From contig JAFYXQ010000005.1 in assembly GCA_017546085.1 (NCBI GenBank), positions 1-44,532 of the forward strand: DNA of 44,532 bases, written 5' to 3'. Below are positions 5,591-40,624 of the stretch, in pieces. Positions within the stretch are counted from its first letter, which is position 1, and each line of letters starts with the position of its first letter. Both the position numbers and the translations under genes were made by a program. The notes under the pieces are model-generated. The model saw only the letters and a program-made list of their open reading frames with translations, did no database searches and was not told the origin of the DNA. This DNA is from Alphaproteobacteria bacterium (GTDB lineage: Bacteria > Pseudomonadota > Alphaproteobacteria > Rs-D84).

Positions 5591-6042
5591 AAGAAAATAT
5601 TGTTTCTTTTTTGAAAAAATCTTTCCCGTTTTTGTTAACAATCGGGTTGTGGCGACTGTCCACACCAATATGGAATCCTGCGGGAATACTTGCCATTATC
5701 CCAATATTTTATTGCAGTTTTATTAGACCAATTCCATGGTTTGCATTGTTTAGTGTTTTTATGTGCTTTGTTATTGATTATAAATTTGAAACTATTTGTT
5801 TTTGGGTTGCGATGTATTGCCTGTTCTATGCGATAAACAGCTTTCAAAATTTAATCGATATTCAACGCATGGATAAAAATGCGATTTTTGCATTTCTTGT
5901 TTTTTTTGGTATATGTATAATTTTACAGATTTTTTCAAATCTATCTTTTATAAACCTGATTAATGGAATTTGGATTTTTATGTGGGTAACGTTGTTATAC
6001 ACACCAACAGTGGTATTAATCAAAAGGATTTATCATGATTGA
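5587..6042 (+). CDS. mreD: rod shape-determining protein MreD (polytopic membrane protein)
   Basis: 151-aa hydrophobic protein. It has an ATGA overlap with mreC and overlaps the mrdA start. The call is positional. Confidence 0.55.
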   Translation: MKENIVSFLKKSFPFLLTIGLWRLSTPIWNPAGILAIIPIFYCSFIRPIPWFALFSVFMCFVIDYKFETICFWVAMYCLFYAINSFQNLIDIQRMDKNAIFAFLVFFGICIILQIFSNLSFINLINGIWIFMWVTLLYTPTVVLIKRIYHD

Positions 6043-16286: not shown

Positions 16287-16486
16287 TGTTGAATTTGTTG
16301 AAAACAGTTTTTAGTTTTTTTTAAACAGTTTTTTAACAAAAAAATCCAATGTTTCTGCGATTTTTTATGGTATTGTTAATAAAAACTTAAAAATAATTAA
16401 CAGTTGAAAATAATATGCTTTTTTAACAGTTTTAACAATTTTATGTACGATTGTTTTTATGCTTGTTGAAAATTGTTGAAATTGTT
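16287..16486 (+). promoter_or_regulatory. AT-rich upstream region of virB3 with reiterated TGTTGAAA / AACAGTT motifs
   Basis: TGTTGAA(A) occurs at about 16287, 16297, 16464 and 16474. AACAGTT occurs at about 16303, 16324, 16400 and 16426. Confidence 0.4.
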
Positions 16487-16491
16487 ATAAT
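16463..16491 (+). promoter_or_regulatory. candidate sigma70-type promoter of virB3-virB4
   Basis: -35 TTGTTG (16463-16468), a 17-nt spacer and an extended -10 TGTTATAAT (16483-16491). The SD GGGGTGAG lies just upstream of the ATG at 16514. Confidence 0.4.
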
Positions 16492-16513
16492 TCAGTTACC
16501 CAGGGGTGAGATT

Positions 16514-16804
16514 ATGAAACAGCAAGTTTTAAAAGCATTGGCAAATCCAGCACAAATATTTCATGTGCCATATATGTTGGCACTGATTAATTTTTTTGTG
16601 CAGTTTATCGCTTTTATTATAATTTTTGTACTTGGTTTAGTATTTTTTAATAAAGATGTAAGTCCATTATGGTTTTTGATATCTGTTATAATAGTTCATT
16701 CTATATTGGCTATTTTTTCAAAACGTGATCCGCAATTGGGGCAAATTATTATATCTAAGATTCAATTAATAAAACTAAAAATACCAAGGAAATTAGCAGC
16801 ATGA
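16514..16804 (+). CDS. virB3: type IV secretion system protein VirB3
   Basis: 96 aa with two hydrophobic segments and the pattern L..P..IFHVPY...N followed by KRDP. It has an ATGA overlap with virB4. Confidence 0.75.
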   Translation: MKQQVLKALANPAQIFHVPYMLALINFFVQFIAFIIIFVLGLVFFNKDVSPLWFLISVIIVHSILAIFSKRDPQLGQIIISKIQLIKLKIPRKLAA

Positions 16805-19227
16805 CGAATTTTGATAACTTCTTTAATTATTTTGCAGGTGGGGAATTTCCAATAACGTTAACTGTTTTGGTTATGTTGGTTGTGTTTCTATTTTTAGTGC
16901 TGATGATTTTTGTGCCAACAATAACAAAGAAGATTTTTCCAAGTTTTGGTTATTCGAAGTATGCAAATTATTTACCATTTAAACAGGTTAATAATGATAA
17001 TTCAATGTTATTAACAGATGGTAGTTATATTTGTGTTTATAAGGTTAAAGGACTGCAAACGAGTATGCAAGATAAGGAAGCACGTGAAAAATTCCTTGAT
17101 TTGCGGGCACAAATATTTAATCAAATTCGTGATCCAAATGTGGTTATGCGTTTTTATATGATTCGTGATGCGGCAGATGAGGTGTCTGATTATGAATTTA
17201 GACAACCTGTGTTACAAAAAATTTATGATAAGTGGCAAGGACAGGGATTAAAAATATTTTTAAATTCTTATTATATTGTTTTGTCTGTTAAGGGGCCTGA
17301 TGCGCGTGCAAAATTATGGCAATATGGGAATTATATAGAATCTGTGTTGGCGGCGTATAAACCGCAAATTTTGAAAAATAAAAGTCATGACAATATGGCT
17401 ACATTCTTGGGGCGTATATTATCACCGATTTCAAAGCCAAGACCAAAGACGGCTGATAATGATATTGCAAGTTTAACCACGGTTGATGATGTTGAATTTT
17501 TAAAAAATGGATTTGTTAGATATCAATCCGGTGGAAGTCAATCGTTTGCAGCTATTATTTCTTTTAAAACATCGCCTGATTATCTTGATGAAGAGTTTTT
17601 TGAAACTATTTCCACAATTCAGACAGAAATGATTTCAATGAATGCGTTTAAAATTATGGGAACTGCTGCTGTGGAATCAACGTTAAGACAACGTCGTACA
17701 ACAGCGGATGAATCTAAAACTTCTACGGAAGATCAGATTGAAGAAGCGCAATCGATTATGGATGAAAATGTTTCAGGAAATCAAAATTTGGTAAATTATT
17801 ATCCTTTATTTGTTTTGTTTGGGAAGTCGCGCGAAGAATTAGAAAAATATGTTGATGAATTTAGAAAAATTTCAGCATCTTTTGGGATTTCGCCGATTGT
17901 TGAATCATTTGCATCTAAGGTTTCTTGGTTTGCGCAGATTCCAGGATTTGATGTTTTTCCACGTTCTTTTAAATTGTTGTCGCGTGCAGCTGCGATTTCT
18001 ATTCCGATGTCAACACAACCACGTGGTGTTGAAAATTCAGATTGGGGGCCGGGGCCATTGGTTATTTTTCCAACTGCACAGGGAACACCATATCAATTTC
18101 AATTCCATGTTTCTGACAAACCTGCGGCGGTGGCACATACACTTACCATTGGGCCAACAGGTGGTGGTAAAACAACACTGTTTTCATTCTTGATTGCACA
18201 AAGTTTAAGACATCAAAAATTAAAAGCTTTCTTCTTTGATAGAAATAAGGGGGCAGAAATATTTACACTCGCAGTTGGTGGAAAGTACATAACTATGCAG
18301 GGTAAGGAAAAAAATAAAGACCCGATGGAAAATACTTTCTTGACACATTTAAATCCGCTGAAAATGCCGGATAGTGCTGCAAATAGGGCTTTTTTACGTC
18401 GGTGGTTTGCAATTATTTCTGGGCAAAGTGATAATGTATCTGCAGATGAAATTGCGCGTGCTGTATCGGTGAATTTTGATTATTTGTCTGATAAAGATAG
18501 GATGTTAAAAAATTTATGGGAAAGTTGTTTTTCTTCTGCTGGGAATATGCGACCTGCGTTGAAGAAGTGGGTTGATCCATTGCAGTATGGCGATATGTTT
18601 AATGAATCAAATGATACGCTTGATTTGCAGTCGCGATTAACAACATTTGATTTTACTGATATTTTGCAAGACCCTGTGTTATCGCCGGCAGTTATTTCTT
18701 ATATTTTGCACAGGATTAATAATATAACCGTTGCAGGTGGTAATCCATCATTGATTATGATTGACGAAACAGCACCGATGCTTGAAAATAAGATGTTCCG
18801 TGATAATTTTATTGCAGGTTTGCAAGAAGGACGAAAAAATCGTCAGGCATATATGGCCGCGTTCCAACGTGCAAATGTTCTTGATAAACTGGGGATTGGT
18901 GATGTTGTCCGTGGGCAAGCACAGACGGTATTATTCTTCCGTAATCCTGCGGCAGATGCCAATGATTATGCGCATTGGAATCTGAATCCACTTGAAATGG
19001 CATTTATTCAGGGGCGTGCATATCCAAATCTGAAACGTGCATTATTATTATCAAGACCTGTAACAGGTGAATCAGTGATTTTGAATACTGAACTGGGTGG
19101 GCTGGGCAGTATGTTGAGATTGTTTGAATCAGGACGTTCATCTGTGTTGTTAGCTGAAGAATTATATAAGATGTATGGTTCAAATTTTGTTGAAGAATAT
19201 CTGAAAAAGCAAGGTGTTACAGATTAG
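16801..19227 (+). CDS. virB4: type IV secretion system ATPase VirB4
   Basis: 808 aa with Walker A GPTGGGKTT and a Walker B-like region LIMIDETAPML. The size and position after virB3 fit. Confidence 0.9.
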   Translation: MTNFDNFFNYFAGGEFPITLTVLVMLVVFLFLVLMIFVPTITKKIFPSFGYSKYANYLPFKQVNNDNSMLLTDGSYICVYKVKGLQTSMQDKEAREKFLDLRAQIFNQIRDPNVVMRFYMIRDAADEVSDYEFRQPVLQKIYDKWQGQGLKIFLNSYYIVLSVKGPDARAKLWQYGNYIESVLAAYKPQILKNKSHDNMATFLGRILSPISKPRPKTADNDIASLTTVDDVEFLKNGFVRYQSGGSQSFAAIISFKTSPDYLDEEFFETISTIQTEMISMNAFKIMGTAAVESTLRQRRTTADESKTSTEDQIEEAQSIMDENVSGNQNLVNYYPLFVLFGKSREELEKYVDEFRKISASFGISPIVESFASKVSWFAQIPGFDVFPRSFKLLSRAAAISIPMSTQPRGVENSDWGPGPLVIFPTAQGTPYQFQFHVSDKPAAVAHTLTIGPTGGGKTTLFSFLIAQSLRHQKLKAFFFDRNKGAEIFTLAVGGKYITMQGKEKNKDPMENTFLTHLNPLKMPDSAANRAFLRRWFAIISGQSDNVSADEIARAVSVNFDYLSDKDRMLKNLWESCFSSAGNMRPALKKWVDPLQYGDMFNESNDTLDLQSRLTTFDFTDILQDPVLSPAVISYILHRINNITVAGGNPSLIMIDETAPMLENKMFRDNFIAGLQEGRKNRQAYMAAFQRANVLDKLGIGDVVRGQAQTVLFFRNPAADANDYAHWNLNPLEMAFIQGRAYPNLKRALLLSRPVTGESVILNTELGGLGSMLRLFESGRSSVLLAEELYKMYGSNFVEEYLKKQGVTD

Positions 19228-19238
19228 TGGTACAACAT

Positions 19239-19853
19239 ATGCGTTTATCAGTGGTTATGTTTTTTGTATTGATTTCTTTGCCCGTAAATGCGGTGGATTG
19301 TGTGAAATACAAAAAAAATCCAATTGTAAATGTAACGCATATTGTGCCTGAAAAGAAAATTATTCAGCCTGATGAAGATATGGATTTGCAGTTACATGGG
19401 CATGTTATGTCAACAATGGCGGAATCATATAATATTTCAACAGCAGCAACGTTTGTTAAAACTGGGTTTTGTGTTTCACTTGAATCGATAGATGTTGGGT
19501 TCGGGTATAATGATTTTATTGTAAATATTGACCGAAATTATAAACCTAATTCGTGTGCGTATAATGCGGTATTGGCGCATGAAAACAAACATATTAATGA
19601 ATATTTATTGGTATTTGATGAATTCAAGGATGATTTTGAACGGGCGTTAAATGTGGCTGCAAATTCTGTTATGCCTGTGTTTGTTGAAAAAAAATCACAG
19701 ATTGATACCGTGATAGAAGATTTTTATCAGAAAATTCAAAATCATCCTGAAATTGTTTTGTTAAAGCAAAAAATTCGCGCCGCTGAAGAAATTAGAAATA
19801 AACGTATTGACCAAGATGAAGATGGTGCTGATTTAATAAAATGTTTTGAATAA
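19239..19853 (+). CDS. secreted hypothetical protein with HExxH motif (HENKH), coupled to virB4
   Basis: Sec signal peptide MRLSVVMFFVLISLPVNA. The frame opens with a GTG overlapping the virB4 TAG (19225-19229), and the first ATG is at 19239. LAHENKHINEY is metallopeptidase-like and possibly DUF922-like. Confidence 0.5.
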   Translation: MRLSVVMFFVLISLPVNAVDCVKYKKNPIVNVTHIVPEKKIIQPDEDMDLQLHGHVMSTMAESYNISTAATFVKTGFCVSLESIDVGFGYNDFIVNIDRNYKPNSCAYNAVLAHENKHINEYLLVFDEFKDDFERALNVAANSVMPVFVEKKSQIDTVIEDFYQKIQNHPEIVLLKQKIRAAEEIRNKRIDQDEDGADLIKCFE

Positions 19854-22884: not shown

Positions 22885-23277
22885 ATGAAAAAGATTTTTA
22901 TGTTAGGGGCGGCGTTAATGTTGGCTGCGTGTAATGGTTTTGTTAAAAATGAAAATGGTAGTCAGTATTTATTACAATTGGATGCAGAACCTATTGGTTG
23001 TACATTTTTATATAAGTTGGAAACAGAAGTTTCTGTTTATGCAGCAGAAGATGCAAAACGTTATATGGAAAATCGTATTGTTGATCAGGCACGCCCTGGG
23101 AATGCGTATTGGATTACAAGTCAGCGAACAAAACCAAATGAATGGGTGATTTTTGGGCCTGAACGTTCGTTTGTTTTGGTTGCAAATGTTTATGATTGTC
23201 CAAATGTGAATAATGTTCGTACTGCAAAAGATATGGTTGATATTTCAGATAATTGTATATATGGAAATTGTCAATAA
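22885..23277 (+). CDS. small lipoprotein (DUF4156-like pattern)
   Basis: Lipobox LAAC at residues 13-16. The C..LY...... A...M.N.......GN...I......... VY.C arrangement resembles DUF4156 lipoproteins. It has its own terminator. Confidence 0.55.
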   Translation: MKKIFMLGAALMLAACNGFVKNENGSQYLLQLDAEPIGCTFLYKLETEVSVYAAEDAKRYMENRIVDQARPGNAYWITSQRTKPNEWVIFGPERSFVLVANVYDCPNVNNVRTAKDMVDISDNCIYGNCQ

Positions 23278-23282
23278 TAATT

Positions 23283-23309
23283 ATCCCACATTTGTGGGAT
23301 TTTTTTTAC
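23283..23309 (+). terminator. intrinsic terminator after lipoprotein gene
   Basis: ATCCCACA-TTTG-TGGGAT followed by T8. Confidence 0.65.
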
Positions 23310-23331
23310 GATTTTTATTCCTTGAAATCAT

Positions 23332-23361
23332 TTGCCTTGGATTTATATTTTGTGTTATAAT
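23332..23361 (+). promoter_or_regulatory. candidate sigma70-type promoter of the pilO/P/Q/R-like operon
   Basis: -35 TTGCCT (23332-23337), an 18-nt spacer and an extended -10 TGTTATAAT (23353-23361). This is the same extended -10 as upstream of virB3. Confidence 0.35.
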
Positions 23362-23391
23362 TGTTTTGAATATTCAGAGAGAGAATTTTAA

Positions 23392-24654
23392 TTGGCCAAT
23401 CAAGTTATAACTATTAATAGAAAAAAGTATGCTGTCGGTTTGTTTTGGCAGCCTATATCGCATGGGGTTCCACCACGTGTTTTTGTGAAGAATCTTGCGC
23501 GTGGTATTGATAAAAAACTGAATTTGTTCGCAGAATATCGTGAAATGGTTGCACTGGGGTCGCGACGTTTTGGACAGCGTGCAACAATGCGTGTGGCTGC
23601 GGCTGCGGTTATGGAAAGTTTTTCTGAATATACGTCTTTCTTGGCGATGTTTCAGGTGTCAAATGGGTATTATTTGGTTGCATCGCGTAATGGTGTTATT
23701 ATAGAAGATAAGTTATTTTCTGCTGAAAATTTAGCGCGGGCAGAATATGTTAAGTTGATGGAAATTCCTGATTGGGGGGCATTTTTTGCGCCTGGTGCAT
23801 GGGGAATGCCGCGTGCAGTTGAAAAAAACTTGTCAGATGTTTTGAATGTGAATAATCATGTAACACTGCGTTCTATTAGTTATTTAAGGGCAGGGGTGAT
23901 ATCTGCTTTGTTGGTGGTTTTGTTTTTTGTGTTGTTTATGGGGATTTTTAAGGATTCGGTTAAACAAGCGTTTGGTCCAAGACCGCAGGTTGCAGAATTA
24001 AATCCAGAATTAGTTGCAGAATATAAACGTCAGATAGAAGAAAAAAATAAAGAATTAGATGTAAAATTTGAAATCGAAAAACAATTACCACCTGAACCGA
24101 TTGTTATGCCGTATGAATTATTGCCTGATATGATATCGCGGGCAGAATTGTGTTATCGGGCGATTGGTTTTGTTATGCAGCCAATTACAGGTTGGAATCA
24201 GGTTAGTGCGATATGTGGGGAAACACATGTGGTTGCTGAATTAAAGCGGTCGTTTGGTACATTGGATGAATTTTATAATGTTGCAACTGAATTAATGCCG
24301 GGTGCGTTTGTAGAAGAACTTGATGAAGATACATTGCGTGTAACGGCAGTTTTACCAAAACTAGATTCAGTTTCATCCCAAGATGAACGTGATGCTGATA
24401 CGATTTTGCGTGATATAACTTCTTTGTTTCAAGGGGTTGATACCACTGTGAATGCACAGATTGTGATGGATACATTAACAAATGGGGTTGATGTAAAAGA
24501 ATTAAGTTTGGTTGAAATTGAAATTGAATCAAAGTTAACACCAGTGCATTTTATCAAGATTTTTGAAGATTTTGGTGGTGTTTATTTGATGCAAGCACGT
24601 TGGGACGTGGCAAAACGTATATGGAACTATGAGGTGATAATCTATGCAAAGTAA
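23392..24654 (+). CDS. bitopic membrane protein resembling type IVb pilus accessory protein PilO/PilO2 (PAP_PilO-like)
   Basis: 420 aa with a TTG start. The N-terminus (...INRKKYAVGLFWQPIS...) matches my recollection of the PilO2 GLFWQ signature. It has a single mid-protein TM segment (GVISALLVVLFFVLFMGIF). Its size and position precede PilP/Q/R-like genes. Confidence 0.5.
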   Translation: MANQVITINRKKYAVGLFWQPISHGVPPRVFVKNLARGIDKKLNLFAEYREMVALGSRRFGQRATMRVAAAAVMESFSEYTSFLAMFQVSNGYYLVASRNGVIIEDKLFSAENLARAEYVKLMEIPDWGAFFAPGAWGMPRAVEKNLSDVLNVNNHVTLRSISYLRAGVISALLVVLFFVLFMGIFKDSVKQAFGPRPQVAELNPELVAEYKRQIEEKNKELDVKFEIEKQLPPEPIVMPYELLPDMISRAELCYRAIGFVMQPITGWNQVSAICGETHVVAELKRSFGTLDEFYNVATELMPGAFVEELDEDTLRVTAVLPKLDSVSSQDERDADTILRDITSLFQGVDTTVNAQIVMDTLTNGVDVKELSLVEIEIESKLTPVHFIKIFEDFGGVYLMQARWDVAKRIWNYEVIIYAK

Positions 24655-25312
24655 AAAAGTATTTTTTGTTGTTTTGTTATTTATTCTGATGCCGATTATG
24701 TCAATTAAGGCAGAAGAGGTTATAGTAGAAGAACAGGTAGGTATAGAGCAGATTTCTGCTGATGCGGTTGCTGATTATCAGGTTCAGGGTTCTTTGTTTC
24801 AACAAATTACTGATTTAGAACAAGAAAAGGTTTTAATGCAATTGGAAAAAGAACGTGCACAGTTGGATTTGGAACTGGATAGATTAGCTGCGGAAAAAAT
24901 AAAACTGCATATGGAAATCGATACCCTGTCAGGGCGTGCAGAACAGCAGCAACAGGAAATAGAAACCCAAAAAGCAAAATTAGAAGCCGAGGCTGCACGT
25001 ATAGAACATGAAAAAGAAGCCTGGCAGGCACAGGCTGAAAAAGAAAAAACAGCAGCGGTTGCAAAAACAACAAAAAAACAAGAAAACACATCAATGGATA
25101 TTGCTGAAAAATATAGATTGGTTAATGTGGTTGGGGCTGGAAATCAATTACAGGCAACTGTTGAAGATTTGAAGTCAGGACAGTCAAAACGTGTTGCCGT
25201 GGGTAAGGTTTTAGACGGCTTTACTGTAAAATCTATATCACTGGATGAAGGGGTGGTATTTGAAGGTCCTGATGGTGAAATGCAGAATTTAAATGTTAGT
25301 AATGGAAAATAA
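24644..25312 (+). CDS. periplasmic coiled-coil protein, PilP-like (GspC HR-type C-terminal beta domain)
   Basis: Signal/anchor MQSKKVFFVVLLFILMPIMSIKA, a long Q/E/A/K coiled coil, and a C-terminus YRLVNVVGAGNQLQATVEDLKSGQSKRVAVGKVLDGFTVKSISLDEGVVFEG typical of PilP. It overlaps the upstream gene by 11 nt. Confidence 0.45.
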   Translation: MQSKKVFFVVLLFILMPIMSIKAEEVIVEEQVGIEQISADAVADYQVQGSLFQQITDLEQEKVLMQLEKERAQLDLELDRLAAEKIKLHMEIDTLSGRAEQQQQEIETQKAKLEAEAARIEHEKEAWQAQAEKEKTAAVAKTTKKQENTSMDIAEKYRLVNVVGAGNQLQATVEDLKSGQSKRVAVGKVLDGFTVKSISLDEGVVFEGPDGEMQNLNVSNGK

Positions 25313-25314
25313 TA

Positions 25315-26949
25315 ATGCCAAAACAAAAAGATAATTTTAATAATATCAATACCTATGATAAGCCTTCTGTACCGGCGGGACTTGAAAATTCAGAAAGCAA
25401 AGATATTATTGATTATTTGTTTGAAAATAATAATCGGTTGTTAACTGCAACTGGTGCAGCAATGGAATTACCGCATGATACACAAGGGTTGATTGCGTAT
25501 TTTTCTGGTGGCGAAATTATTATTTCACGTACACATCGTTATGATGGTCGTGTGTTGGCTTTCCTTGATTTGTTAAAACGCAGCGGAAGTTTTGTTCGTG
25601 AACCATTTTATTCTGATTTGGGATTGATTTCAAATATATATAAATCAAATGACCTAAAATTAGGTGGGCGTGCACGTTTTAAACAGGATTTTGATAACCA
25701 AATGCAGAAAGACTTTGTTGATATTATTGCAAAGGCTGCTGCGCAAAAGGTGTCTGATGTTCATATAGAGGTTGCAGACCAAACAACAATTTTCTTTCGT
25801 ATAGATGGCAGTATGCAGCCTGTGTTGGAATATAATTCACAATGGGGTGAATCTTTTGTTCGTGCAGCGTTTGCATCTGCTGATATGTCAAATGCAAACT
25901 ATGCCCAGAATGAATATCAGTCAGCTCAAAAGGATGGTCGTACACCGTTACGTGGAACCAAGGATTTATATTTACCAACAGGGGTTTTGGGTGTTCGTAT
26001 GCAATTTAACCCAATTGCATTTGGCAGTCGATATGTTGTTATGCGATTGCTGTATGATAACCCGTCCGAAGGTATAAAGGTAGAACAAGAATTTGGACCA
26101 TATGAACAACGTTTGTTAGCGCGTATGCGTTCATTTCCAACAGGATTGGTTATTGTTGCGGGGCCAACAAGTTCTGGTAAATCGACAACGCTTGTACGTA
26201 ATATGTCAATGATGTTGCGTGAACGTAATTATGAAATAAACATGATTACAGTGGAAAATCCTGTGGAACAGAAGATTTTTGGGGCACGTCAGATGCCGGT
26301 TGTTAATACAACAAATGAAGAACAACGTGAAGAAAAATATGTTGAAGCATTGGCTGCGGCATTGCGAAGCGACCCCGATACATTGATGGTTGGTGAAATT
26401 CGTACGTTGGCTGCGGCACAATTAACAGTGCGTGGGGCATTATCTGGCCATAATGTGTGGACAACATTGCATGCGAATTCTGCAATGGCAGCTTTGACAC
26501 GTTTGCTAGATTTGGGAATAGAACCGTTTAAATTGAAAGAAGAAACATTGATGCGTGGTTTGGTTTCAATGCGTTTATTTAAAAAGGTTTGTCCATATTG
26601 TCGTGAACCATTGATAAATCATCCTGAACGTGGTGCTTATCGTCGTGTAATGGATGCGTATGGCGAAATCGGATTAAAACAGGTGTATCAACGTGGTGTT
26701 GGTTGTGAACACTGTAATGGAACAGGGAATTTTGGTCGTGTAAAGGCTGGTGAAATTATAATTACAAATAGTGAATTTTTAAGACTAGCATTGTCAGGTG
26801 ATACAGATGGGGCGGTACATTATTGGTTGGAAAAAATGGATGGACGTACATTGAAAGAAGCGGCTGCTTCACTGATGTTGCAAGGGGTTATTAGTATTGA
26901 TGAAATAGAACGTTGGGTCGGGCAATTAGACCAGCCAGGGGTTTATTAA
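25315..26949 (+). CDS. GspE/PilB-family secretion/pilus assembly ATPase (R64 PilQ-like)
   Basis: Walker A GPTSSGKST, Asp box ENPVE, Walker B DPDTLMVGEIR, His box GHNVWTTLHAN and a tetracysteine cluster CPYC...CEHC. Confidence 0.9.
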   Translation: MPKQKDNFNNINTYDKPSVPAGLENSESKDIIDYLFENNNRLLTATGAAMELPHDTQGLIAYFSGGEIIISRTHRYDGRVLAFLDLLKRSGSFVREPFYSDLGLISNIYKSNDLKLGGRARFKQDFDNQMQKDFVDIIAKAAAQKVSDVHIEVADQTTIFFRIDGSMQPVLEYNSQWGESFVRAAFASADMSNANYAQNEYQSAQKDGRTPLRGTKDLYLPTGVLGVRMQFNPIAFGSRYVVMRLLYDNPSEGIKVEQEFGPYEQRLLARMRSFPTGLVIVAGPTSSGKSTTLVRNMSMMLRERNYEINMITVENPVEQKIFGARQMPVVNTTNEEQREEKYVEALAAALRSDPDTLMVGEIRTLAAAQLTVRGALSGHNVWTTLHANSAMAALTRLLDLGIEPFKLKEETLMRGLVSMRLFKKVCPYCREPLINHPERGAYRRVMDAYGEIGLKQVYQRGVGCEHCNGTGNFGRVKAGEIIITNSEFLRLALSGDTDGAVHYWLEKMDGRTLKEAAASLMLQGVISIDEIERWVGQLDQPGVY

Positions 26950-26950
26950 T

Positions 26951-28021
26951 ATGAATAAGCTGGAATTGTTATATGCTAAAATTGTTTTCAGATTGAATAC
27001 TGAAAAACGTATGTCGATTTGTAGAAAATTGGCGTCTTTGTTACGTAACGATTTTACATTAATTGATGCGCTGGAACGTCTGGAAATGATTGAATCTAAA
27101 AATGGTGCTAAGCCACGTGAACCATTTGCAATTGTTATGCGTCAATGGCAGAAAAATCTTGAACGTGGTATGACGTTTTCAGAAGCAACACGTGGTTGGG
27201 TTCCACCCGAAGAAACGTTGTTGGTTACGTCTGGGAATTTGTCGAATTTGGTGGTCGCGCTGGAAAATGTTGGACGTGTCGTTAGTGGTACGCAACGTAT
27301 TCGTCGCGCAATGACAACAGCGGTTGGGTACCCTATGTTTTTATTAGCATTGACATTTGGTATTATTTTGATGGTTGGTATTTATCTTGTTCCGCCATTG
27401 GCCGAGGTTGCAGGAAATAATATAATTTGGCGTGGCAGTGCACAATCTTTAATTTGGATTTCTGATTTTTCAATAAAATATTGGTATTATTTCCTTGTTG
27501 GATTTGCATCACTTGTTGCGATTATTTGGTTGAGTTTACCAAATTGGGCGGGGCGTATGCGTGTTTTGGCGGATAAATTACCACCATGGAATGTTTATAA
27601 AATTCAAGTATCTGTTGGTTGGTTAATGTCATTGGCTGCGATGGTTAGTGCAGGGGTTACAATCCCTGATGCGATGCGTATGCTTGCCGATAATGCAAAT
27701 AGATATTTACAAACAATTCTTGAAAAAACATTACGTTTTATTGCAAATGGTGAAAATCTTGGGGTTGCGTTATCGCATACAAAACGCGATTTTCCTGATT
27801 CTGAAATAATTGGTGATTTGACTATTTATGCTGATATGAATGGTTTTGATGAAAATCTGACTCAGGTTGCGAATGATTATTTGGATGAATCTGTTCGTAA
27901 AATGGAAAAGATTTCAAATACGTTAAACAGCCTTGGTATATTGTTAGTTTCTGCGATTATTGCGTGGGTTGTTTTGGGTACATTCCAGATGCAGGACCAG
28001 ATTACATCAGCCCTATCTTAA
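26951..28021 (+). CDS. GspF/PilC-family inner-membrane platform protein (R64 PilR-like)
   Basis: 356 aa with two repeated T2SSF-like halves and three hydrophobic segments. It starts 1 nt after the ATPase stop. Confidence 0.85.
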   Translation: MNKLELLYAKIVFRLNTEKRMSICRKLASLLRNDFTLIDALERLEMIESKNGAKPREPFAIVMRQWQKNLERGMTFSEATRGWVPPEETLLVTSGNLSNLVVALENVGRVVSGTQRIRRAMTTAVGYPMFLLALTFGIILMVGIYLVPPLAEVAGNNIIWRGSAQSLIWISDFSIKYWYYFLVGFASLVAIIWLSLPNWAGRMRVLADKLPPWNVYKIQVSVGWLMSLAAMVSAGVTIPDAMRMLADNANRYLQTILEKTLRFIANGENLGVALSHTKRDFPDSEIIGDLTIYADMNGFDENLTQVANDYLDESVRKMEKISNTLNSLGILLVSAIIAWVVLGTFQMQDQITSALS

Positions 28022-28050
28022 AAATTAAATATAATAACTTATCTAAACAT

Positions 28051-28185
28051 GTTGTGTGTGGCTTATGTAACTTCTGTACACTGCGCCATTCACAACATGT
28101 TTATCTAAATCATCATATTTAATTTTACACTAATCCTGACTAGTGGTGCGTATGGGTTGTGTGTGGCTTATGTAACTTATGTACA
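28051..28185. repeat. 30-bp direct repeat pair (GTTGTGTGTGGCTTATGTAACTT[C/A]TGTACA)
   Basis: Copies lie at 28051-28080 and 28156-28185 with 1 mismatch. The first copy sits in the loop of the inverted repeat AACATGTTGTG/CACAACATGTT (28046-28101). Confidence 0.7.
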
Positions 28186-28267
28186 TTATGATTTTATAAT
28201 GTGGATTATATGGTTTAGTTTGTTCTTGATTTTTATTTCCCAGTCCGTATAATGTGGTGGAATTTAT

Positions 28268-28341
28268 GCCCTAATAGTCTAGTGGTAAAACACGTCCTTG
28301 GTAAGGACGAGTCGCAAGTCCGATTCTTGCTTAGGGCACCA
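28268..28341 (+). tRNA. tRNA-Thr (anticodon GGT), CCA encoded, with atypical D-stem and T-loop
   Basis: Hand fold: acceptor GCCCTAA/TTAGGGC, anticodon stem CGTCC/GGACG with loop TTGGTAA, T stem GCAAG/CTTGC. The T-loop is TCCGATT rather than TTCRANY, the D-stem has one C:A mismatch, and the variable loop is 4 nt. Confidence 0.7.
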
Positions 28342-28491
28342 CAAATGCATCATCTATTTTGCGTTTGTTTATTTTTACTCGGGTCATGTATGTTTTATAC
28401 ACTTCCGTCGTAAAAATTACACAATACGCAATATCTAATACATTTGTGTCGCCCAACAGGCACCCAAATGCATCATCTTTTTCGCGTTTGT
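28335..28491 (+). repeat. direct duplication of the tRNA-Thr 3' end plus downstream about 28 nt (att-like)
   Basis: GGCACCACAAATGCATCATCTATTTTGCGTTTGT (28335-28368) compared with GGCACCCAAATGCATCATCTTTTTCGCGTTTGT (28459-28491) shows 1 indel and 2 mismatches. Confidence 0.65.
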
Positions 28492-35950: not shown

Positions 35951-35988
35951 AAAAAAACGCCGGATATATTCCGGTGTTTTTTTTATTT
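35951..35988. terminator. bidirectional terminator between tsaE and ftsA-rpe
   Basis: AAAAAAACGCCGGA-TATAT-TCCGGTGTTTTTTTT. It overlaps the stop codon of the minus-strand gene. Confidence 0.6.
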
Positions 35989-37758
35989 GTCTGATTTAAG
36001 CAGGCTGTGCACGGCTAGTGGAAAATCGTGTGATTTGGCAAGATATGAACCACTGACCAATAAATCGGCACCTGCATCCCAACATAACTGTGCGGTTTTG
36101 TCAGTTATTCCACCATCAACAGATATGGTGTATTTTAATCCGTATTTTTTACGTGTCGCAGCCAATACGGATATTTTGTGTATAGCCATTGGTTCGAACT
36201 GTTGACCAGCTGCACCAGGGGTTACAGACATTACCATTACTTCATCTATATCACGTAATACAGGTTTTAATAATGATACAGGTGATTCTGGATTTAGTGC
36301 AATGCCAACGCGGCGACCTGAATTTTTTATTGTTTTTATTGCGTTACGTAGACCCGATGTGTTGGTGGATAATATTATGGTGTCAGCACCCGCAGCAATT
36401 GCGTTTTCTGCCCATATTTTTGGACTTTCTGTCATTAGATGTACGTGGAGATGGCTTTTTGTATTGTTGCGAATAGTTTTTAATTCATCGATACTGCCAG
36501 AGATTTTATCAACATAAAATCCATCCATTATATCAACGTGTATCATTGATATGTTTGCAGATTTAAATAATGTGTATGTTGCAGGATTGTACATATCAAA
36601 ACAAAGAGTGCTTGGTAAAATAGGTACAAATTTTAATTTGTTTTTTTGTTTGTGTTTAAATAGTTTTATAAACCAATTAGCACGTTTTGACCATTTATTA
36701 TGACGTGATATGTATTGTTTTCTGTGTTCAGATTCAGAATTCCATATGTATTCTGATAATGCGCGAACCGTGCCATCAGACGGTAATATTTCAGTTGTTA
36801 CTGCGAAGGCATTTTCTATAAAATCACGCAATCCTTCAATTTCAGAGCCACCGCCACTAAGTATGATTTTTGTTGGTTTGTATTTTGTAAATGATGGCAG
36901 GCAACCGTCTTTGATGTTGCTGATTATTTTAATAATGATGGGTAATGTAACTTCGTTAACGTCGCTGCGTGAAAAATCATATGCTGTATCAGCTGGGGTG
37001 AATCTGTCCATTTCCTTGGGGATTAATGATGTAACAGAACGTTTTATTGTGTCTGCTGATTCAGGGGTTATGTTAAATTTATTTATTATTGCATTGGTTA
37101 TATCGTTACCGCCAAGCTTTATTTTTGTATGCCATATGGGACCGCGGTCTGTCCATATTGATGCGCTGGTGTATTCTGAACCAAAATCAATAAACATGGT
37201 GGTTTGTTTATGTGTGCGATAAATCATATTCTGTAAAAATTGTGGGTCAAATACAGCAATTGCTTCAATGTGTGCAGCGCGTAGGCAATTAAATAATTTT
37301 TCAAAATCATTACGGTTATAAAATATTGTCCCAAAGACAGACATTAATTGATGGTCGATATGTCCAATTGGGGATATAATATTTCGTGCACATGTTGTGT
37401 CATAACGCAATGGTAAAATATGTATCGCAAAATAATTATCAGGTGTTTCGATTTTTGATATTTGGTTGCTGATGTCTGATGCATTTATTTTATGTTCACC
37501 GTTCCAAACAGTACTTTTTGCGGTCATTTTAAATTCAGATGCACCAAGGTTTCCTGTTATGTATGCTTTATCAAAATTTGTGTCGATTTGTTTTTCTAGT
37601 TCATCTATTACTGATTTTAATGCAAATGCGGTATCAAAACTATCGATGCTGAAAAATGCAGATCTGTCAATATTGGCGTTGCGGACACGGTGTGCAATAC
37701 CGCGAACACCATATGTGCCAATATCAAGGCATAAAAAAGAAGAATCAAATAAATTCAT
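35983..37758 (-). CDS. ftsA: fusion protein: cell division protein FtsA (N-terminal, about 375 aa) plus ribulose-phosphate 3-epimerase (C-terminal, about 215 aa)
   Basis: FtsA motifs: LDIGTYGV, FIDFGSEYT, KLGGNDIT, ILSGGGSEIEGL and an amphipathic helix WSKRANWFIKLF. The same frame continues with Rpe motifs: ILPSTLCFD, IHVDIMDG, HVHLM, MSVTPGAAGQQF, VDGGI and GADLLVSGS. Confidence 0.8.
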   Translation of the reverse strand: MNLFDSSFLCLDIGTYGVRGIAHRVRNANIDRSAFFSIDSFDTAFALKSVIDELEKQIDTNFDKAYITGNLGASEFKMTAKSTVWNGEHKINASDISNQISKIETPDNYFAIHILPLRYDTTCARNIISPIGHIDHQLMSVFGTIFYNRNDFEKLFNCLRAAHIEAIAVFDPQFLQNMIYRTHKQTTMFIDFGSEYTSASIWTDRGPIWHTKIKLGGNDITNAIINKFNITPESADTIKRSVTSLIPKEMDRFTPADTAYDFSRSDVNEVTLPIIIKIISNIKDGCLPSFTKYKPTKIILSGGGSEIEGLRDFIENAFAVTTEILPSDGTVRALSEYIWNSESEHRKQYISRHNKWSKRANWFIKLFKHKQKNKLKFVPILPSTLCFDMYNPATYTLFKSANISMIHVDIMDGFYVDKISGSIDELKTIRNNTKSHLHVHLMTESPKIWAENAIAAGADTIILSTNTSGLRNAIKTIKNSGRRVGIALNPESPVSLLKPVLRDIDEVMVMSVTPGAAGQQFEPMAIHKISVLAATRKKYGLKYTISVDGGITDKTAQLCWDAGADLLVSGSYLAKSHDFPLAVHSLLKSDK

Positions 37759-38487: not shown

Positions 38488-38868
38488 TTACATTGCGCGC
38501 AATAAATATCCGCGTCTGAACATACATTTTCGGTAATAACCCACAGATTTAGATGTTGTATTACGTGGAACTGACATCAGGCTGCGCTGACCAACGTCGC
38601 GATATTCGTTTGATTGAAATGTTACCCACAAACCATCCCAGTCAGGCATAACACCACTTTGGTTCGGGGCCAATAATTTGGCGAGTCTGGATTTTGGTTG
38701 GTATGATGGTGTGTTTATGCCAAGGCAAGCCTTGTGATCACGAACAAACTGTTCTGTGGTAACAGCTTCGTTTTCCCAGTTTAATATTGTGGCATCATCA
38801 ATACTGCCACGATTAACGGATGCACAGGCGGTTAAAACTAAAAAAATTGGTAAAAATTTAATTCTCAT
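38488..38868 (-). CDS. hypothetical lipoprotein (126 aa)
   Basis: Lipobox LTAC (MRIKFLPIFLVLTAC). No family recognised. Confidence 0.5.
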   Translation of the reverse strand: MRIKFLPIFLVLTACASVNRGSIDDATILNWENEAVTTEQFVRDHKACLGINTPSYQPKSRLAKLLAPNQSGVMPDWDGLWVTFQSNEYRDVGQRSLMSVPRNTTSKSVGYYRKCMFRRGYLLRAM

Positions 38869-38943: not shown

Positions 38944-39267
38944 ATGGCAATAACCGTTCAAAATTTTATTAAACTGGCTAATTTTTACAATCAAACCGCG
39001 ATAATGATGTCTGCGATTTGTGTGCAAAAGGGCGGAATTGCACTGGAAAATTATGTTGGAAGATTTTATGCAGCAGATGTACTTGAATACGTGTTGGAAT
39101 ATGGACGCAGGTTAATTGCGATTGATAAAAGTGTTTCTCCAGAAATAAAGGGGCTGATTGATAGAATGGCTGCGCAGTTCGAAAATATGCGTTCGATGGT
39201 TACCCCAACACAAAAACCAATACATGAAATGACACTAGAAGAATTTGAAAAAGTTATGAATATATAA
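38944..39267 (+). CDS. hypothetical protein (107 aa)
   Basis: SD GGAAAGGACAGAGAG lies before the ATG. It sits directly upstream of, and is probably co-transcribed with, the secretin-like lipoprotein gene. Confidence 0.4.
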   Translation: MAITVQNFIKLANFYNQTAIMMSAICVQKGGIALENYVGRFYAADVLEYVLEYGRRLIAIDKSVSPEIKGLIDRMAAQFENMRSMVTPTQKPIHEMTLEEFEKVMNI

Positions 39268-39298
39268 TATGATATATCAAAGACAAAAGGGAAAGGAT

Positions 39299-40624
39299 AT
39301 GATTTTCTTAAAAAATATAATGGGTTCGGTCTTGGTTTTTGCTACGTTGGTGGCATGTCAGCAGAAACAACAGATGCCGTTGTATGATAATATTACAGTT
39401 GTTGATGAATTGGTTATTGATGAAAATTCTGTGCCTATTTTTCCAAAGAAGGCGGCATTGACAACTGATACTGCGCGTCGTTTTTCAATAGAATTACCAA
39501 AACGTTGCGAGGTTGATTGGAATAATCAGACTGTGGTTTCTGTTGTGCCTGCAGAGAAGATAGAGATTGTTCGTTTAGGTGTCGGGGATAAATTGCCTGA
39601 ATTAAAGGTGTCGGATTATGAATTTAAGGATTTAACTGTTAAAAAGGCACTTGATAAATTGTTGGACGGGACAGATGTTTCAGTGGTAGAAGATGAAGTG
39701 TTGTATGAAAAGATTTCTGGTACGATTTCATCTGGTGTGTTATCTGATGCGGTTGAACTGATGACCAAGATGGGACGTGTGTATTATTCTTATGATGAAA
39801 ATACGGGTGAATTGCATTTAACACATAGGGGAAAATGGTTAATAAAAATGCCGCAAGATGAAACTATAATAATGGCAATGTTGGATGCGATGCATGGGGC
39901 AGATATGCGGAACTTGCTGGTTGATTGGCAGGACAAGACAGTTGTGTTTGAAGGTAATTATCAGACCGAACGAGAAGTTGCTAAAATAATCGCTGATATC
40001 GCAGGGAAAAAGTATATGTTGGCCTGGGATATCGATGTTTATCGTGTTTATCCACGTACGGATAATCCGATTGTTTGGATGAATTTGTTGCCTGCATTTG
40101 GGGAAAAAAATATAAAGATGTCTATCCCTGGGGTTGTGGGACGTGCGCTGGTTGTGGGACCTGAAATTAATACTAAAACATTGCAGGAATTTATGGCGCA
40201 ACAGGCAAATGTTGTTTTGGTATCCCAAGGGACGTTTGCGATTCCAAATGGTTGGCAATCAAGGTTTGATATTGGTCAATGTGGCAAGGAAGAAAGACTT
40301 GAAACAGATTTAGTTATTGGGGCAACTGGAACATATGGTGATTATGCAGGGCGTAAAAAAATAGATGCAAAAATTGTTCTGAGAACAAGTGCAGGTGAAT
40401 TGTCTTCGTTTAATATACCATCAACAGTTGGGGATAATTATGTAATTGTTGGTATTCCAACGCATTCGTTTGTAACAACACCTGAAACGTTGGTATCACC
40501 ATTTGCTGAATTGGTGGTATTTATGTCGCCACGTGTGATATCAATTGTCGATGGTCCGGTTGGGCATGATGATAATGCAGAAACGTTGGTTGGTGATGCG
40601 TTGCGCGATTTTTTGAATGATTAA
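39299..40624 (+). CDS. outer-membrane lipoprotein with secretin-like features (possible PilN/BfpB-type lipoprotein secretin)
   Basis: Lipobox LVAC and an N0/STN-like segment LTVKKALDKLLDGTDVSVVEDE. The C-terminal region VVLVSQGTFAIPNGWQSRFDIGQ...IDAKIVLRTSAGEL...VGDNYVIVGIP...ELVVFMSPRVI follows the secretin-domain pattern. The CDS itself is solid, but the family call is tentative. Confidence 0.35.
   Translation: MIFLKNIMGSVLVFATLVACQQKQQMPLYDNITVVDELVIDENSVPIFPKKAALTTDTARRFSIELPKRCEVDWNNQTVVSVVPAEKIEIVRLGVGDKLPELKVSDYEFKDLTVKKALDKLLDGTDVSVVEDEVLYEKISGTISSGVLSDAVELMTKMGRVYYSYDENTGELHLTHRGKWLIKMPQDETIIMAMLDAMHGADMRNLLVDWQDKTVVFEGNYQTEREVAKIIADIAGKKYMLAWDIDVYRVYPRTDNPIVWMNLLPAFGEKNIKMSIPGVVGRALVVGPEINTKTLQEFMAQQANVVLVSQGTFAIPNGWQSRFDIGQCGKEERLETDLVIGATGTYGDYAGRKKIDAKIVLRTSAGELSSFNIPSTVGDNYVIVGIPTHSFVTTPETLVSPFAELVVFMSPRVISIVDGPVGHDDNAETLVGDALRDFLND

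What the first reader, a model, noticed from the sequence alone, without database searches (positions are those of the whole stretch)
22885..28021. Pilin-less type IVb-pilus-like core (PilO-PilP-PilQ-PilR order) embedded in housekeeping DNA
Four tightly packed genes (11-nt overlap, then 2-nt and 1-nt gaps) sit behind their own candidate promoter. The first is a 420-aa bitopic protein starting ...KKYAVGLFWQPIS. The second is a 222-aa exported coiled-coil protein with a PilP/GspC-HR-like C-terminal beta domain. The third is a 544-aa GspE/PilB ATPase with complete Walker A/B, Asp and His boxes and a tetracysteine cluster. The fourth is a 356-aa GspF/PilC platform protein.

This order and these sizes mirror the PilO-PilP-PilQ-PilR block of IncI1 R64 thin pili and the PAPI-1/ICE pil2 clusters. 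Those clusters are normally part of conjugative elements. They also carry a secretin (PilN), prepilin (PilS), transglycosylase (PilT), prepilin peptidase (PilU) and adhesin (PilV).

Here the block lies between lpxC plus a small lipoprotein gene and a decayed repeat/tRNA junction followed by aspS. No pilin, peptidase or conjugation genes are visible in 44 kb. The ATPase motifs look intact, so this could be a retained and repurposed minimal inner-membrane motor rather than a dead relic. Such a domesticated partial T4bP in a reduced genome is not something I recognise as described.
Basis: partly seen in the sequence, partly recalled or inferred. Interest (0 to 1): 0.75.

Follow-up and report, generated by a model that had tools for sequence, protein, structure and literature searches.

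The report
Inner-membrane core of a scattered pilus machine
The four genes are the intact, strongly conserved inner-membrane motor of a type IVb pilus in tiny-genome gut bacteria (Candidatus Enterousia); it is not "pilin-less", because its outer-membrane pore gene lies 11 kb away in the same window and relatives carry its pilin genes at a separate chromosomal site.

Summary
The four-gene block is real. It encodes a PilO2/BfpC-type bitopic protein, a PilP-family protein, a BfpD-like GspE ATPase with all motifs, and a GspF platform. It has its own promoter-like site behind a terminator.

The window is a whole contig of a Candidatus Enterousia MAG (order Rs-D84, genomes under about 1 Mb). The block is full length wherever the contig allows in all 80 related species loci fetched. 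dN/dS is 0.03-0.12, as low as or lower than lpxC and lpxK. It is a vertically inherited, functional chromosomal operon, not a relic.

The "pilin-less minimal motor" reading fails:
- A 441-aa lipoprotein at 39299-40624, annotated hypothetical and with no significant Pfam hit, is a divergent secretin. Support comes from transitive HMM hits, hhalign (99.9%) and a confident AlphaFold model whose best PDB match is BfpB.
- Relatives carry a conserved second locus with a 152-aa TcpA-like prepilin and three 400-450-aa PilV-like prepilins. In two genomes it sits on the same contig as the pilOPQR block.
- VirB3/VirB4 lie 4 kb upstream in the window.

A prepilin peptidase was not found and could not be searched genome-wide. 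Verdict: a dispersed type IVb pilus system, undescribed for this clade, of moderate interest.

The parts
23283..23300 (+). Intrinsic-terminator-like hairpin plus T run. It ends the lpxC-lipoprotein transcript and separates it from the pil operon.
   Evidence: sequence read
23332..23361 (+). Promoter-like site (TTGCCT, 18 nt, TG-extended TATAAT) about 30 nt upstream of the first pil gene.
   Evidence: This is a consensus match only; the region's count of such sites (27) is close to shuffled expectation (21.8).
23392..24654 (+). PilO2/BfpC-family bitopic inner-membrane protein, 420 aa. It has a cytoplasmic N-domain, one TM segment at about residues 159-185 and a periplasmic C-domain.
   Evidence: Pfam PF06864 30.0 bits above gathering 26.7. 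N-terminus weakly matches PilO2Bp, PDB 4bz0 (E 0.019). 25% identical to plasmid PilO2. TM segment. 918 homologues, the top 120 nearly all 419-422 aa.
24644..25312 (+). PilP-family protein, 222 aa: signal or anchor sequence, coiled coil, C-terminal beta domain.
   Evidence: NCBIfam TIGR03021 pilP_fam 43.4 bits above cut-off 34.65, residues 100-202; N-terminal hydrophobic segment
25315..26949 (+). GspE-family assembly ATPase (R64 PilQ / BfpD-like), 544 aa, with all catalytic motifs and a tetracysteine site.
   Evidence: T2SSE 208 bits. Best solved relative is BfpD 8dze, 262 bits over residues 29-531. Motif positions. 79-94% identical across 80 species loci. dN/dS 0.035.
26951..28021 (+). GspF-family inner-membrane platform protein (R64 PilR-like), 356 aa.
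   Evidence: T2SSF in two stretches, 92.8 bits; 35% identical to the plasmid T4bP platform; dN/dS 0.034
39299..40624 (+). Divergent secretin lipoprotein (BfpB / R64 PilN class), 441 aa, lipobox LVAC.
   Evidence: No Pfam Secretin hit, only STN at E 0.023. An exhaustive profile search reached 10 of 10 tested distant relatives carrying PF00263 Secretin, some with STN or TcpQ. hhalign family versus secretins gave 99.93% probability, E 1.3e-35, 336 columns. The AF2 model has pLDDT 84.9. The top 17 Foldseek PDB hits are all secretins, best BfpB 9u5s.
22885..23277 (+). 130-aa outer-membrane-type lipoprotein with four Cys. It is linked to lpxC and to the pil block in most relatives. Whether it belongs to the machine is unproven.
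   Evidence: Adjacent in 66 of 85 loci but absent from the neighbourhood in the others. A terminator separates it from pilO. No family hit.

Best explanation
The block is the inner-membrane sub-complex operon of a complete but chromosomally dispersed type IVb pilus (T4bP) machine. That machine is a core, vertically inherited feature of Candidatus Enterousia and other Rs-D84 Alphaproteobacteria.

Inferred mechanism, by homology to BFP, TCP and the R64 thin pilus:
- The hexameric BfpD-like ATPase docks on the GspF-type platform and on the actin-like cytoplasmic domain of the PilO2/BfpC-like protein.
- ATP hydrolysis drives extraction of processed pilin from the inner membrane and its polymerisation.
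- The periplasmic part of PilO2 and the beta domain of PilP link the platform to the N-terminal domains of the secretin lipoprotein (window 39299-40624), through which the fibre leaves the cell.
- The fibre subunit is a 152-aa TcpA-related prepilin. Three 400-450-aa PilV-like prepilins, one lacking Glu5, probably form the tip or adhesin complex. These are encoded at a second locus (rluD ... dnaX-pilin-ompA) that is outside this 44.5-kb contig.

Shown: homology of each part, conservation, purifying selection, and co-occurrence of the loci on single contigs in relatives.

Inferred: physical interactions, that the window's own genome holds the pilin locus, and the biological role. The most likely role is contact or adhesion to a partner or host cell for an obligately dependent organism. 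Export of proteins or uptake of DNA are alternatives.
For: - Family assignments above curated cut-offs for PilO and PilP; T2SSE and T2SSF matches.
- The ATPase is closest to BfpD over its full length.
- ATPase 36%, platform 35% and PilO 25% identical to a plasmid T4bP cluster that has the order secretin-PilO2-PilP-ATPase-platform-PilV.
- The secretin homologue is in the window.
- Prepilin genes lie next to pilOPQR in L040, L046 and L052.
- The pilin family has 1437 hits; 116 of the top 120 are 152 aa, at 58-91% identity. Its best PDB relative is TcpA, E 1.4e-7.
- One large prepilin is similar to PilV, E 1.9e-6.
- The pilin locus is conserved.
- Same-contig co-occurrence: ERZ27227498 k141_780248 carries the pilin locus and lpxC-lipoprotein-pilOPQR. 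JAZLBQ010000026.1 carries secretin, pilOPQR and pilin.
- The block gave 195 matching stretches in a one-genome-per-species collection. It is full length wherever the contig allows in the 80 loci fetched.
- dN/dS is 0.034-0.12 against 0.12-0.20 for lpxC and lpxK.
Against: - The pilin locus was not seen in the window's own genome, because only this contig is available.
- No prepilin peptidase (A24) and no retraction ATPase were found in the window or in about 1.7 Mb of related loci (and the Pfam tables). Only small parts of each genome could be inspected.
- The pilin has a 5-6-residue leader and a 146-aa mature length, which is atypical for T4b pilins.
- Pfam's Secretin, N_methyl and PilS models do not reach significance on the secretin or the pilins.
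- No expression or structural data exist.
Confidence: 0.8

Rival explanations
1. One reading: a pilin-less, secretin-less minimal inner-membrane motor, retained and repurposed for something other than fibre assembly.
For: No prepilin or peptidase ORF in the 44.5-kb window. The ATPase motifs are intact. The genes are under purifying selection.
Against: A secretin homologue is in the window. A pilin and minor-pilin locus is conserved across the clade, is adjacent to the block in three species and is on the same contig in two others. PilP's role is to bridge to a secretin, and the secretin is present.
Confidence: 0.03
2. A decaying remnant of an integrated conjugative element (R64- or PAPI-1-like) left next to a tRNA gene.
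For: T4bP clusters of this type are usually on plasmids or ICEs. tRNA-Thr and direct and inverted repeats lie just downstream. VirB3/VirB4 are nearby.
Against: All four genes are full length in the related species loci wherever the contig extends far enough. dN/dS is 0.03-0.12. The upstream linkage DUF374-lpxK-lpxC-lipoprotein-pilOPQR is conserved in most species. No integrase, relaxase or other mobile-element gene was identified in the window. GC content is not distinct from the flanks.
Confidence: 0.02
3. The same machine, but working mainly as a type II-like secretion device or short pseudopilus rather than as a long adhesive pilus. TCP and CFA/III T4bP systems are known to export TcpF and CofJ.
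For: The pilin is unusually conserved for a surface fibre: 58-91% identity, almost always 152 aa. It has a short leader like pseudopilins. The ATPase scores slightly higher on the GspE model than on the PilB model. NCBI names the pilin 'type II secretion system protein'.
Against: The GspE and GspF equivalog cut-offs are far from met: 220 against 630 bits and 71 against 424 bits. There are no GspH-K-like minor pseudopilins; instead there are three 400-450-aa PilV-like proteins typical of adhesive tips. The closest relatives of pilin, ATPase and secretin are TcpA, BfpD and BfpB. No candidate substrate is known.
Confidence: 0.2
4. An accessory of the VirB-type type IV secretion system. R64 and PAPI-1 T4b pili stabilise mating pairs; here the pilus would bring the cell into contact with a target so that the T4SS can deliver or take up macromolecules.
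For: VirB3-VirB4 and a conserved secreted 208-aa protein lie 3-7 kb upstream of the block in the window and in about 30 related loci. Both machines are retained in genomes under 1 Mb (PMC12306168).
Against: The linkage is loose, with variable orientation and intervening housekeeping genes, and is absent in many loci. No other T4SS genes were seen nearby. No functional evidence exists.
Confidence: 0.12

Closest known systems
R64 thin pilus / PAPI-1 pil2-type type IVb pili (PilN-PilO-PilP-PilQ-PilR-PilS-PilV; PF06864 PilO2 family)
   Same: Same gene order PilO-PilP-ATPase-platform. PF06864 and TIGR03021 hits are above their cut-offs. The secretin is a lipoprotein. Large prepilin-type proteins show similarity to PilV. 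The system is 25-36% identical to a plasmid cluster of this type.
   Different: It is chromosomal, in housekeeping context, and vertically inherited in a whole order-level clade. The genes are split over at least three loci rather than one cluster. The pilin has a 5-6-residue leader and a 146-aa mature form. There are three paralogous PilV-like genes and no shufflon was seen. No PilL, PilM, PilT (transglycosylase) or PilU (peptidase) homologue was found in the DNA available.
Bundle-forming pilus of EPEC (BfpB secretin, BfpC, BfpD, BfpE)
   Same: The ATPase's best solved relative is BfpD over its full length. The secretin model's best PDB match is BfpB in the BfpB-BfpG complex. BfpC belongs to the same PF06864 family as PilO2 (PMC3984277).
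   Different: No BfpF-type retraction ATPase, BfpG, BfpU or bundlin-like pilin was identified. The secretin is shorter (441 aa) and escapes the Pfam Secretin model.
Toxin-coregulated pilus of Vibrio cholerae (TcpA, TcpC/TcpQ)
   Same: The 152-aa pilin family's best PDB sequence match is TcpA, E 1.4e-7. Distant relatives of the secretin carry TcpQ domains.
   Different: TcpA has a 25-residue leader and a roughly 199-aa mature form. The TCP genes form one island.
Type II secretion system (GspC/D/E/F/G/L/M/O)
   Same: Analogous architecture: a GspL-like bitopic protein, a GspC/PilP-like connector, GspE and GspF homologues, a secretin and a short-leader pilin.
   Different: The NCBIfam GspE and GspF equivalog cut-offs are not met. 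No GspM or GspH-K set is present. The closest relatives are all T4bP proteins.

Membership tests
R64/PAPI-1-type type IVb pilus | PilO/PilO2 protein (Pfam PF06864) at or above the gathering score | tested here: met
   30.0 bits against 26.7, residues 14-350. The precomputed PF06864 hit is also present on most homologues.
R64/PAPI-1-type type IVb pilus | PilP-family protein (TIGR03021) above the cut-off | tested here: met
   43.4 bits against 34.65
R64/PAPI-1-type type IVb pilus | GspE-family ATPase with Walker A/B, Asp and His boxes, adjacent to a GspF-family platform | tested here: met
R64/PAPI-1-type type IVb pilus | Lipoprotein secretin (PilN/BfpB class) | tested here: met
   Window 39299-40624. 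hhalign 99.93% to secretins. Foldseek top hits are all secretins, best BfpB. Lipobox LVAC. Caveat: Pfam Secretin itself is not significant.
R64/PAPI-1-type type IVb pilus | Prepilin with a class III signal peptide encoded by the same genome | tested here: inconclusive
   None in the window. Present in relatives, on the same contigs as pilOPQR. The window's other contigs are not available.
R64/PAPI-1-type type IVb pilus | T4b-type pilin: long leader (about 15-30 residues) and large mature pilin (about 190 aa) | tested here: not met
   Leader of 5-6 residues (MKSESG|RSLIE) and mature length 146 aa. The globular part is nevertheless TcpA-related.
R64/PAPI-1-type type IVb pilus | Large PilV-type minor pilin or adhesin | tested here: met
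   In relatives only: three 400-450-aa prepilin-like proteins, one with E 1.9e-6 to Bosea PilV.
R64/PAPI-1-type type IVb pilus | Dedicated prepilin peptidase (PilU, peptidase A24) | not testable with these tools
   Not found in the window or in about 1.7 Mb of related loci. Whole genomes could not be scanned.
R64/PAPI-1-type type IVb pilus | All genes in one cluster carried on a conjugative plasmid or ICE | tested here: not met
   Housekeeping flanks are conserved across species, and the components lie at three or more loci 11-80 kb apart.
Type II secretion system | GspE and GspF equivalog models above the curated cut-offs | tested here: not met
   GspE 219.8 bits against 630.25; GspF 71.4 bits against 424
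Type IVa pilus | PilB and PilC equivalogs, a PilMNOP alignment complex and a PilT retraction ATPase | tested here: not met
   PilB 192 bits against 675.65. PilO2 and PilP(T4b) stand in place of PilMNOP. No second ATPase was seen in the loci.

The most novel reading that the evidence does not exclude
Rs-D84/Enterousia bacteria are predicted obligate symbionts or parasites with genomes under 1 Mb. They may depend on this unusually conserved, dispersed T4b pilus, perhaps together with the scattered VirB system, as their organelle for attaching to and exploiting a partner cell. This would be an alphaproteobacterial counterpart of the type IV pili of Patescibacteria. A further possibility is that prepilin processing happens without a canonical A24 peptidase.
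Probability: 0.3. Interest if true: 0.65.

Novelty: new member of a known kind. Interest (0 to 1): 0.38.

Why it matters
Candidatus Enterousia and other Rs-D84 bacteria are widespread, uncultured gut bacteria. Their genomes are under 1 Mb and lack respiration, most biosynthesis and standard transporters. They are proposed to live off other cells (PMC12306168).

That study did not report pili for this lineage. Two key parts, the secretin and the pilins, are annotated as hypothetical because the standard models miss them.

A complete type IVb pilus machine is among the most conserved gene sets in these genomes. This gives a concrete, testable candidate for how they contact a partner, and it corrects the annotation of several "hypothetical" core genes.

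For pilus biology it is an example of a T4b system that has become chromosomal, scattered and stably inherited. It is not a new kind of machine.

Tried and rejected
- An exact-sequence look-up of the window's ATPase and of P0123 found no record. The source assembly's other contigs could therefore not be reached.
- The first AlphaFold run on the 441-aa lipoprotein used a shallow alignment (83% identity or more) and failed, with pLDDT 35. A diverse alignment fixed it.
- hhalign of the shallow alignment against a single Bosea secretin gave nothing.
- PDB sequence searches with the lipoprotein or its profiles gave no hits or only noise.
- Pfam and NCBIfam on the lipoprotein gave only a sub-threshold STN hit.
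- A regex for the G-x-G-D-x-K motif of A24 peptidases and a screen for small polytopic membrane proteins found no peptidase candidate in about 1.7 Mb of loci.
- I considered whether the ORF downstream of pilR in most relatives (cluster c9, 189 aa) is the peptidase. I rejected this because it is not hydrophobic and has no Pfam hit.
- I considered the 130-aa lipoprotein as R64 PilM or a pilotin. There is no family support and its linkage is variable.
- Rfam found only the two tRNAs.
- Plasmid tblastn shows only about 24% identical PilO2 proteins, so there is no sign of recent transfer.

Full report
**Observation**

The four ORFs exist exactly as described: 23392-24654 (420 aa), 24644-25312 (222 aa), 25315-26949 (544 aa) and 26951-28021 (356 aa). 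They have an 11-nt overlap followed by 2-nt and 1-nt gaps.

- The 420-aa protein passes Pfam's gathering score for PAP_PilO (PF06864, 30.0 against 26.7 bits). It has one predicted TM segment after a cytoplasmic N-domain of about 160 residues.
- The 222-aa protein passes NCBIfam's cut-off for the T4b PilP family (TIGR03021, 43.4 against 34.65 bits).
- The 544-aa protein is a GspE-family ATPase (T2SSE, 208 bits). Its Walker A, Asp box, Walker B, His box and two CxxC pairs are all present. Its best solved relative is the T4b ATPase BfpD, matched over nearly its full length (262 bits).
- The 356-aa protein has two T2SSF stretches.
- A hairpin with a T run at 23283-23300 ends the upstream lpxC-lipoprotein unit. 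A TG-extended -10 promoter-like site sits at 23332-23361. Promoter-like matches in this AT-rich region are not above shuffled expectation, so this is weak evidence.

**Where the window comes from**

A protein of the window matches an NCBI MAG protein that sits on a contig of exactly 44,532 bp (locus tag IKW67_00380). The window is therefore a whole MAG contig.

Relatives of the PilO-like protein are labelled Candidatus Enterousia or 'Alphaproteobacteria bacterium', from ruminant and human gut MAGs. Enterousia belongs to order Rs-D84. Its genomes are about 0.75-1.0 Mb, lack respiration and most biosynthesis, and are predicted to be obligate symbionts or parasites. That paper reports type IV pili only for another lineage (PMC12306168).

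**Conservation**

A one-genome-per-species collection gave 195 matching stretches. In the 80 loci fetched, all four genes are present and full length wherever the contig extends far enough.

| Gene | Identity to the window across the related species loci |
|---|---|
| ATPase | 79-94% |
| Platform | 69-95% |
| lpxC | 59-84% |

| Gene | dN/dS against the closest species, L005 |
|---|---|
| ATPase | 0.035 |
| Platform | 0.034 |
| PilO | 0.12 |
| PilP | 0.115 |
| lpxC | 0.124 |
| lpxK | 0.195 |

In these comparisons dS is about 1, near saturation.

The upstream arrangement DUF374-lpxK-lpxC-lipoprotein-pilOPQR holds in most species. The downstream flank varies: aspS here, a 189-aa ORF followed by gyrB in most. 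This is a vertically inherited, selected chromosomal operon. It is neither a recent insertion nor a relic.

One metagenome assembly of the same species shows the ATPase split in two (L002). Two others and the window have it intact, so this is probably an assembly error.

*VirB genes.* VirB3 (16451-16804) and VirB4 (16801-19227) lie 4 kb upstream. 'No conjugation genes' is therefore not correct.

*A secretin.* The ORF at 39269-40624 encodes a lipoprotein (441 aa from the ATG at 39299, lipobox LVAC) that is annotated hypothetical. It has no significant Pfam or NCBIfam hit, only STN at E 0.023. It is 83-100% identical among the top 120 of 1216 homologues.

- An exhaustive profile search of 1.84 billion representatives found 134 relatives. 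All ten of the distant ones I tested (E 4e-11 to 1e-4) carry Pfam Secretin, some with STN and TcpQ domains.
- Profile-profile comparison of the family with these secretins gives 99.93% probability and E 1.3e-35 over 336 columns. The alignment runs through the secretin domain to the C-terminal ELVVFMSPR motif. That region was not part of the original HMMER match, so the result is not merely circular.
- An AlphaFold model built on the diverse alignment is confident (mean pLDDT 84.9, pTM 0.76). Its 17 Foldseek hits at E of 0.001 or better are all secretins. The best is BfpB of the T4b BfpB-BfpG complex (E 1.2e-9). TM-scores are low (0.14-0.24), as expected for a multidomain monomer model compared with chains from assembled rings.

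The secretin domain is shorter than usual. Whether it forms a normal gated channel is untested.

**Pilins**

No class III signal peptide is encoded in the window. The same scan on the related loci found prepilin-like ORFs immediately upstream of pilOPQR in three species (L040, L046, L052) and 9 kb downstream in a fourth (L026).

The locus has this order: rluD, a secreted protein of about 150 aa, a 175-aa zinc-ribbon membrane protein, three 400-450-aa proteins, then (on the other strand) dnaX, a 152-aa prepilin and an OmpA-type lipoprotein.

- The three large proteins have the N-termini RG|SFLMQALL (no Glu5), RG|ASITEVLL and RG|NMLVELLL. They are distant paralogues of each other.
- The 152-aa prepilin begins MKSESG|RSLIEVIGVLAITG and has two C-terminal Cys.
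- The pilin family has 1437 database hits. Of the top 120, 116 are 152 aa, at 58-91% identity, from the same clade. Its best PDB relative is the T4b pilin TcpA (E 1.4e-7).
- One large protein resembles the PilV adhesin of a Bosea plasmid T4bP cluster (E 1.9e-6).
- The pilin locus is conserved as a unit in other genomes.

Contig ERZ27227498:k141_780248 (114 kb) carries the pilin locus at about 23 kb. At about 103 kb it carries a DUF374-lpxK-lpxC-lipoprotein-pilOPQR locus arranged exactly as in the window.

Contig JAZLBQ010000026.1 (145 kb, Ca. Enterousia) carries the secretin gene at about 33 kb, pilOPQR at about 112 kb and the pilin locus at about 127 kb.

Several further PilO, secretin and pilin hits share identical 'longest contig' lengths (65577, 72630, 247423, 142955). 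This suggests the same pattern elsewhere, but that is inference only.

**Interpretation**

The block is the inner-membrane core of a complete T4b pilus machine whose parts are scattered over at least three chromosomal loci. Each identifiable part has its closest known relative in T4b systems:

- PilO2/BfpC family, whose N-domain is an actin-like fold (PMC3984277);
- PilP (T4b family);
- BfpD-like ATPase;
- BfpB-like secretin;
- TcpA-like pilin;
- PilV-like large prepilins.

Against a plasmid cluster ordered TcpQ-secretin-PilO2-PilP-ATPase-platform-ATPase2-PilV, the identities are 36% (ATPase), 35% (platform) and 25% (PilO).

The mechanism I propose is therefore the standard one. The ATPase is docked on the platform and PilO and polymerises pilin. 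PilO and PilP bridge to the secretin. The PilV-like proteins sit at the tip. This mechanism is inferred from homology, not shown.

**Departures from textbook T4bP**

- The genes are dispersed in housekeeping DNA instead of forming one cluster on a mobile element.
- The pilin has a short 5-6-residue leader and a small mature form.
- The major pilin is unusually conserved.
- The secretin is compact and divergent.
- There are three PilV-like paralogues.

**What remains open**

I found no prepilin peptidase and no retraction ATPase (gene tables). I could inspect only the window and about 20 kb around three loci per genome, so this is absence of evidence.

I could not show that the window's own genome holds the pilin locus.

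The biological role is open. Given the predicted partner-dependent lifestyle (PMC12306168), adhesion or contact is my first choice. Protein export (as for TcpF and CofJ by other T4bP), DNA uptake, or cooperation with the VirB system are alternatives.

**Verdict**

The headline claim, a pilin-less partial system of an undescribed kind, is not supported.

What is there is a new, previously unreported member of the T4b pilus family in Rs-D84 bacteria. Several of its components are currently annotated as hypothetical. Interest is moderate.

Noticed in passing
window 16451-19853: VirB3 (117 aa), VirB4 (808 aa) and a conserved secreted 208-aa ORF form a small T4SS island amid housekeeping genes. It is conserved, in variable orientation, in about 30 related loci. 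This resembles the scattered vir homologue genes of Rickettsiales. No other T4SS genes were seen nearby.
   Followed up: partly
window 6035-7800: PBP2 (MrdA) appears split into two overlapping ORFs in different frames: 6035-6583 (PBP_dimer domain) and 6562-7800 (transpeptidase domain). This is either a frameshift or assembly error, or a genuinely split gene.
   Followed up: no
window 35983-37758 (- strand): A single 591-aa ORF joins an FtsA-like actin-fold region (residues 176-325) to a ribulose-phosphate 3-epimerase domain (397-573). This is an odd fusion, or two genes read through.
   Followed up: no
window 28021-28491: Just downstream of the platform gene there is a 42-nt imperfect inverted repeat (28021-28062 / 28085-28126). 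There is a 30-nt direct repeat (28051, 28156) and a 27-nt direct repeat starting right after the 3' end of tRNA-Thr (28342, 28465). The flank downstream of pilR differs between species, so this may mark an old rearrangement or integration junction.
   Followed up: partly
L002 5125-6773 (same species, another metagenome): The ATPase gene is split into 258-aa and 302-aa ORFs in this assembly. It is intact in the window, L003 and L004. This is probably an assembly error, or possibly a strain-level pseudogene.
   Followed up: no
L040 7991-8449; L088 10001-10459; 1437 database hits: The putative major pilin is almost always 152 aa (116 of the top 120 hits) and 58-91% identical across many species. 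This is far more conserved than surface pilins usually are. It hints at a short or shielded fibre, or a specific conserved ligand.
   Followed up: partly
window 38488-38868 (-) and 38944-39267 (+): A 126-aa lipoprotein gene and a 107-aa cytoplasmic-looking ORF lie immediately upstream of the secretin gene and are conserved with it (L064, L092). The secretin gene overlaps the start of lolC/E. Whether either small protein is a secretin partner or pilotin is unknown.
   Followed up: no
window 22885-23277: A 130-aa, four-cysteine lipoprotein is 63-86% identical across the clade and has no family match. It nearly always sits between lpxC and pilO.
   Followed up: partly
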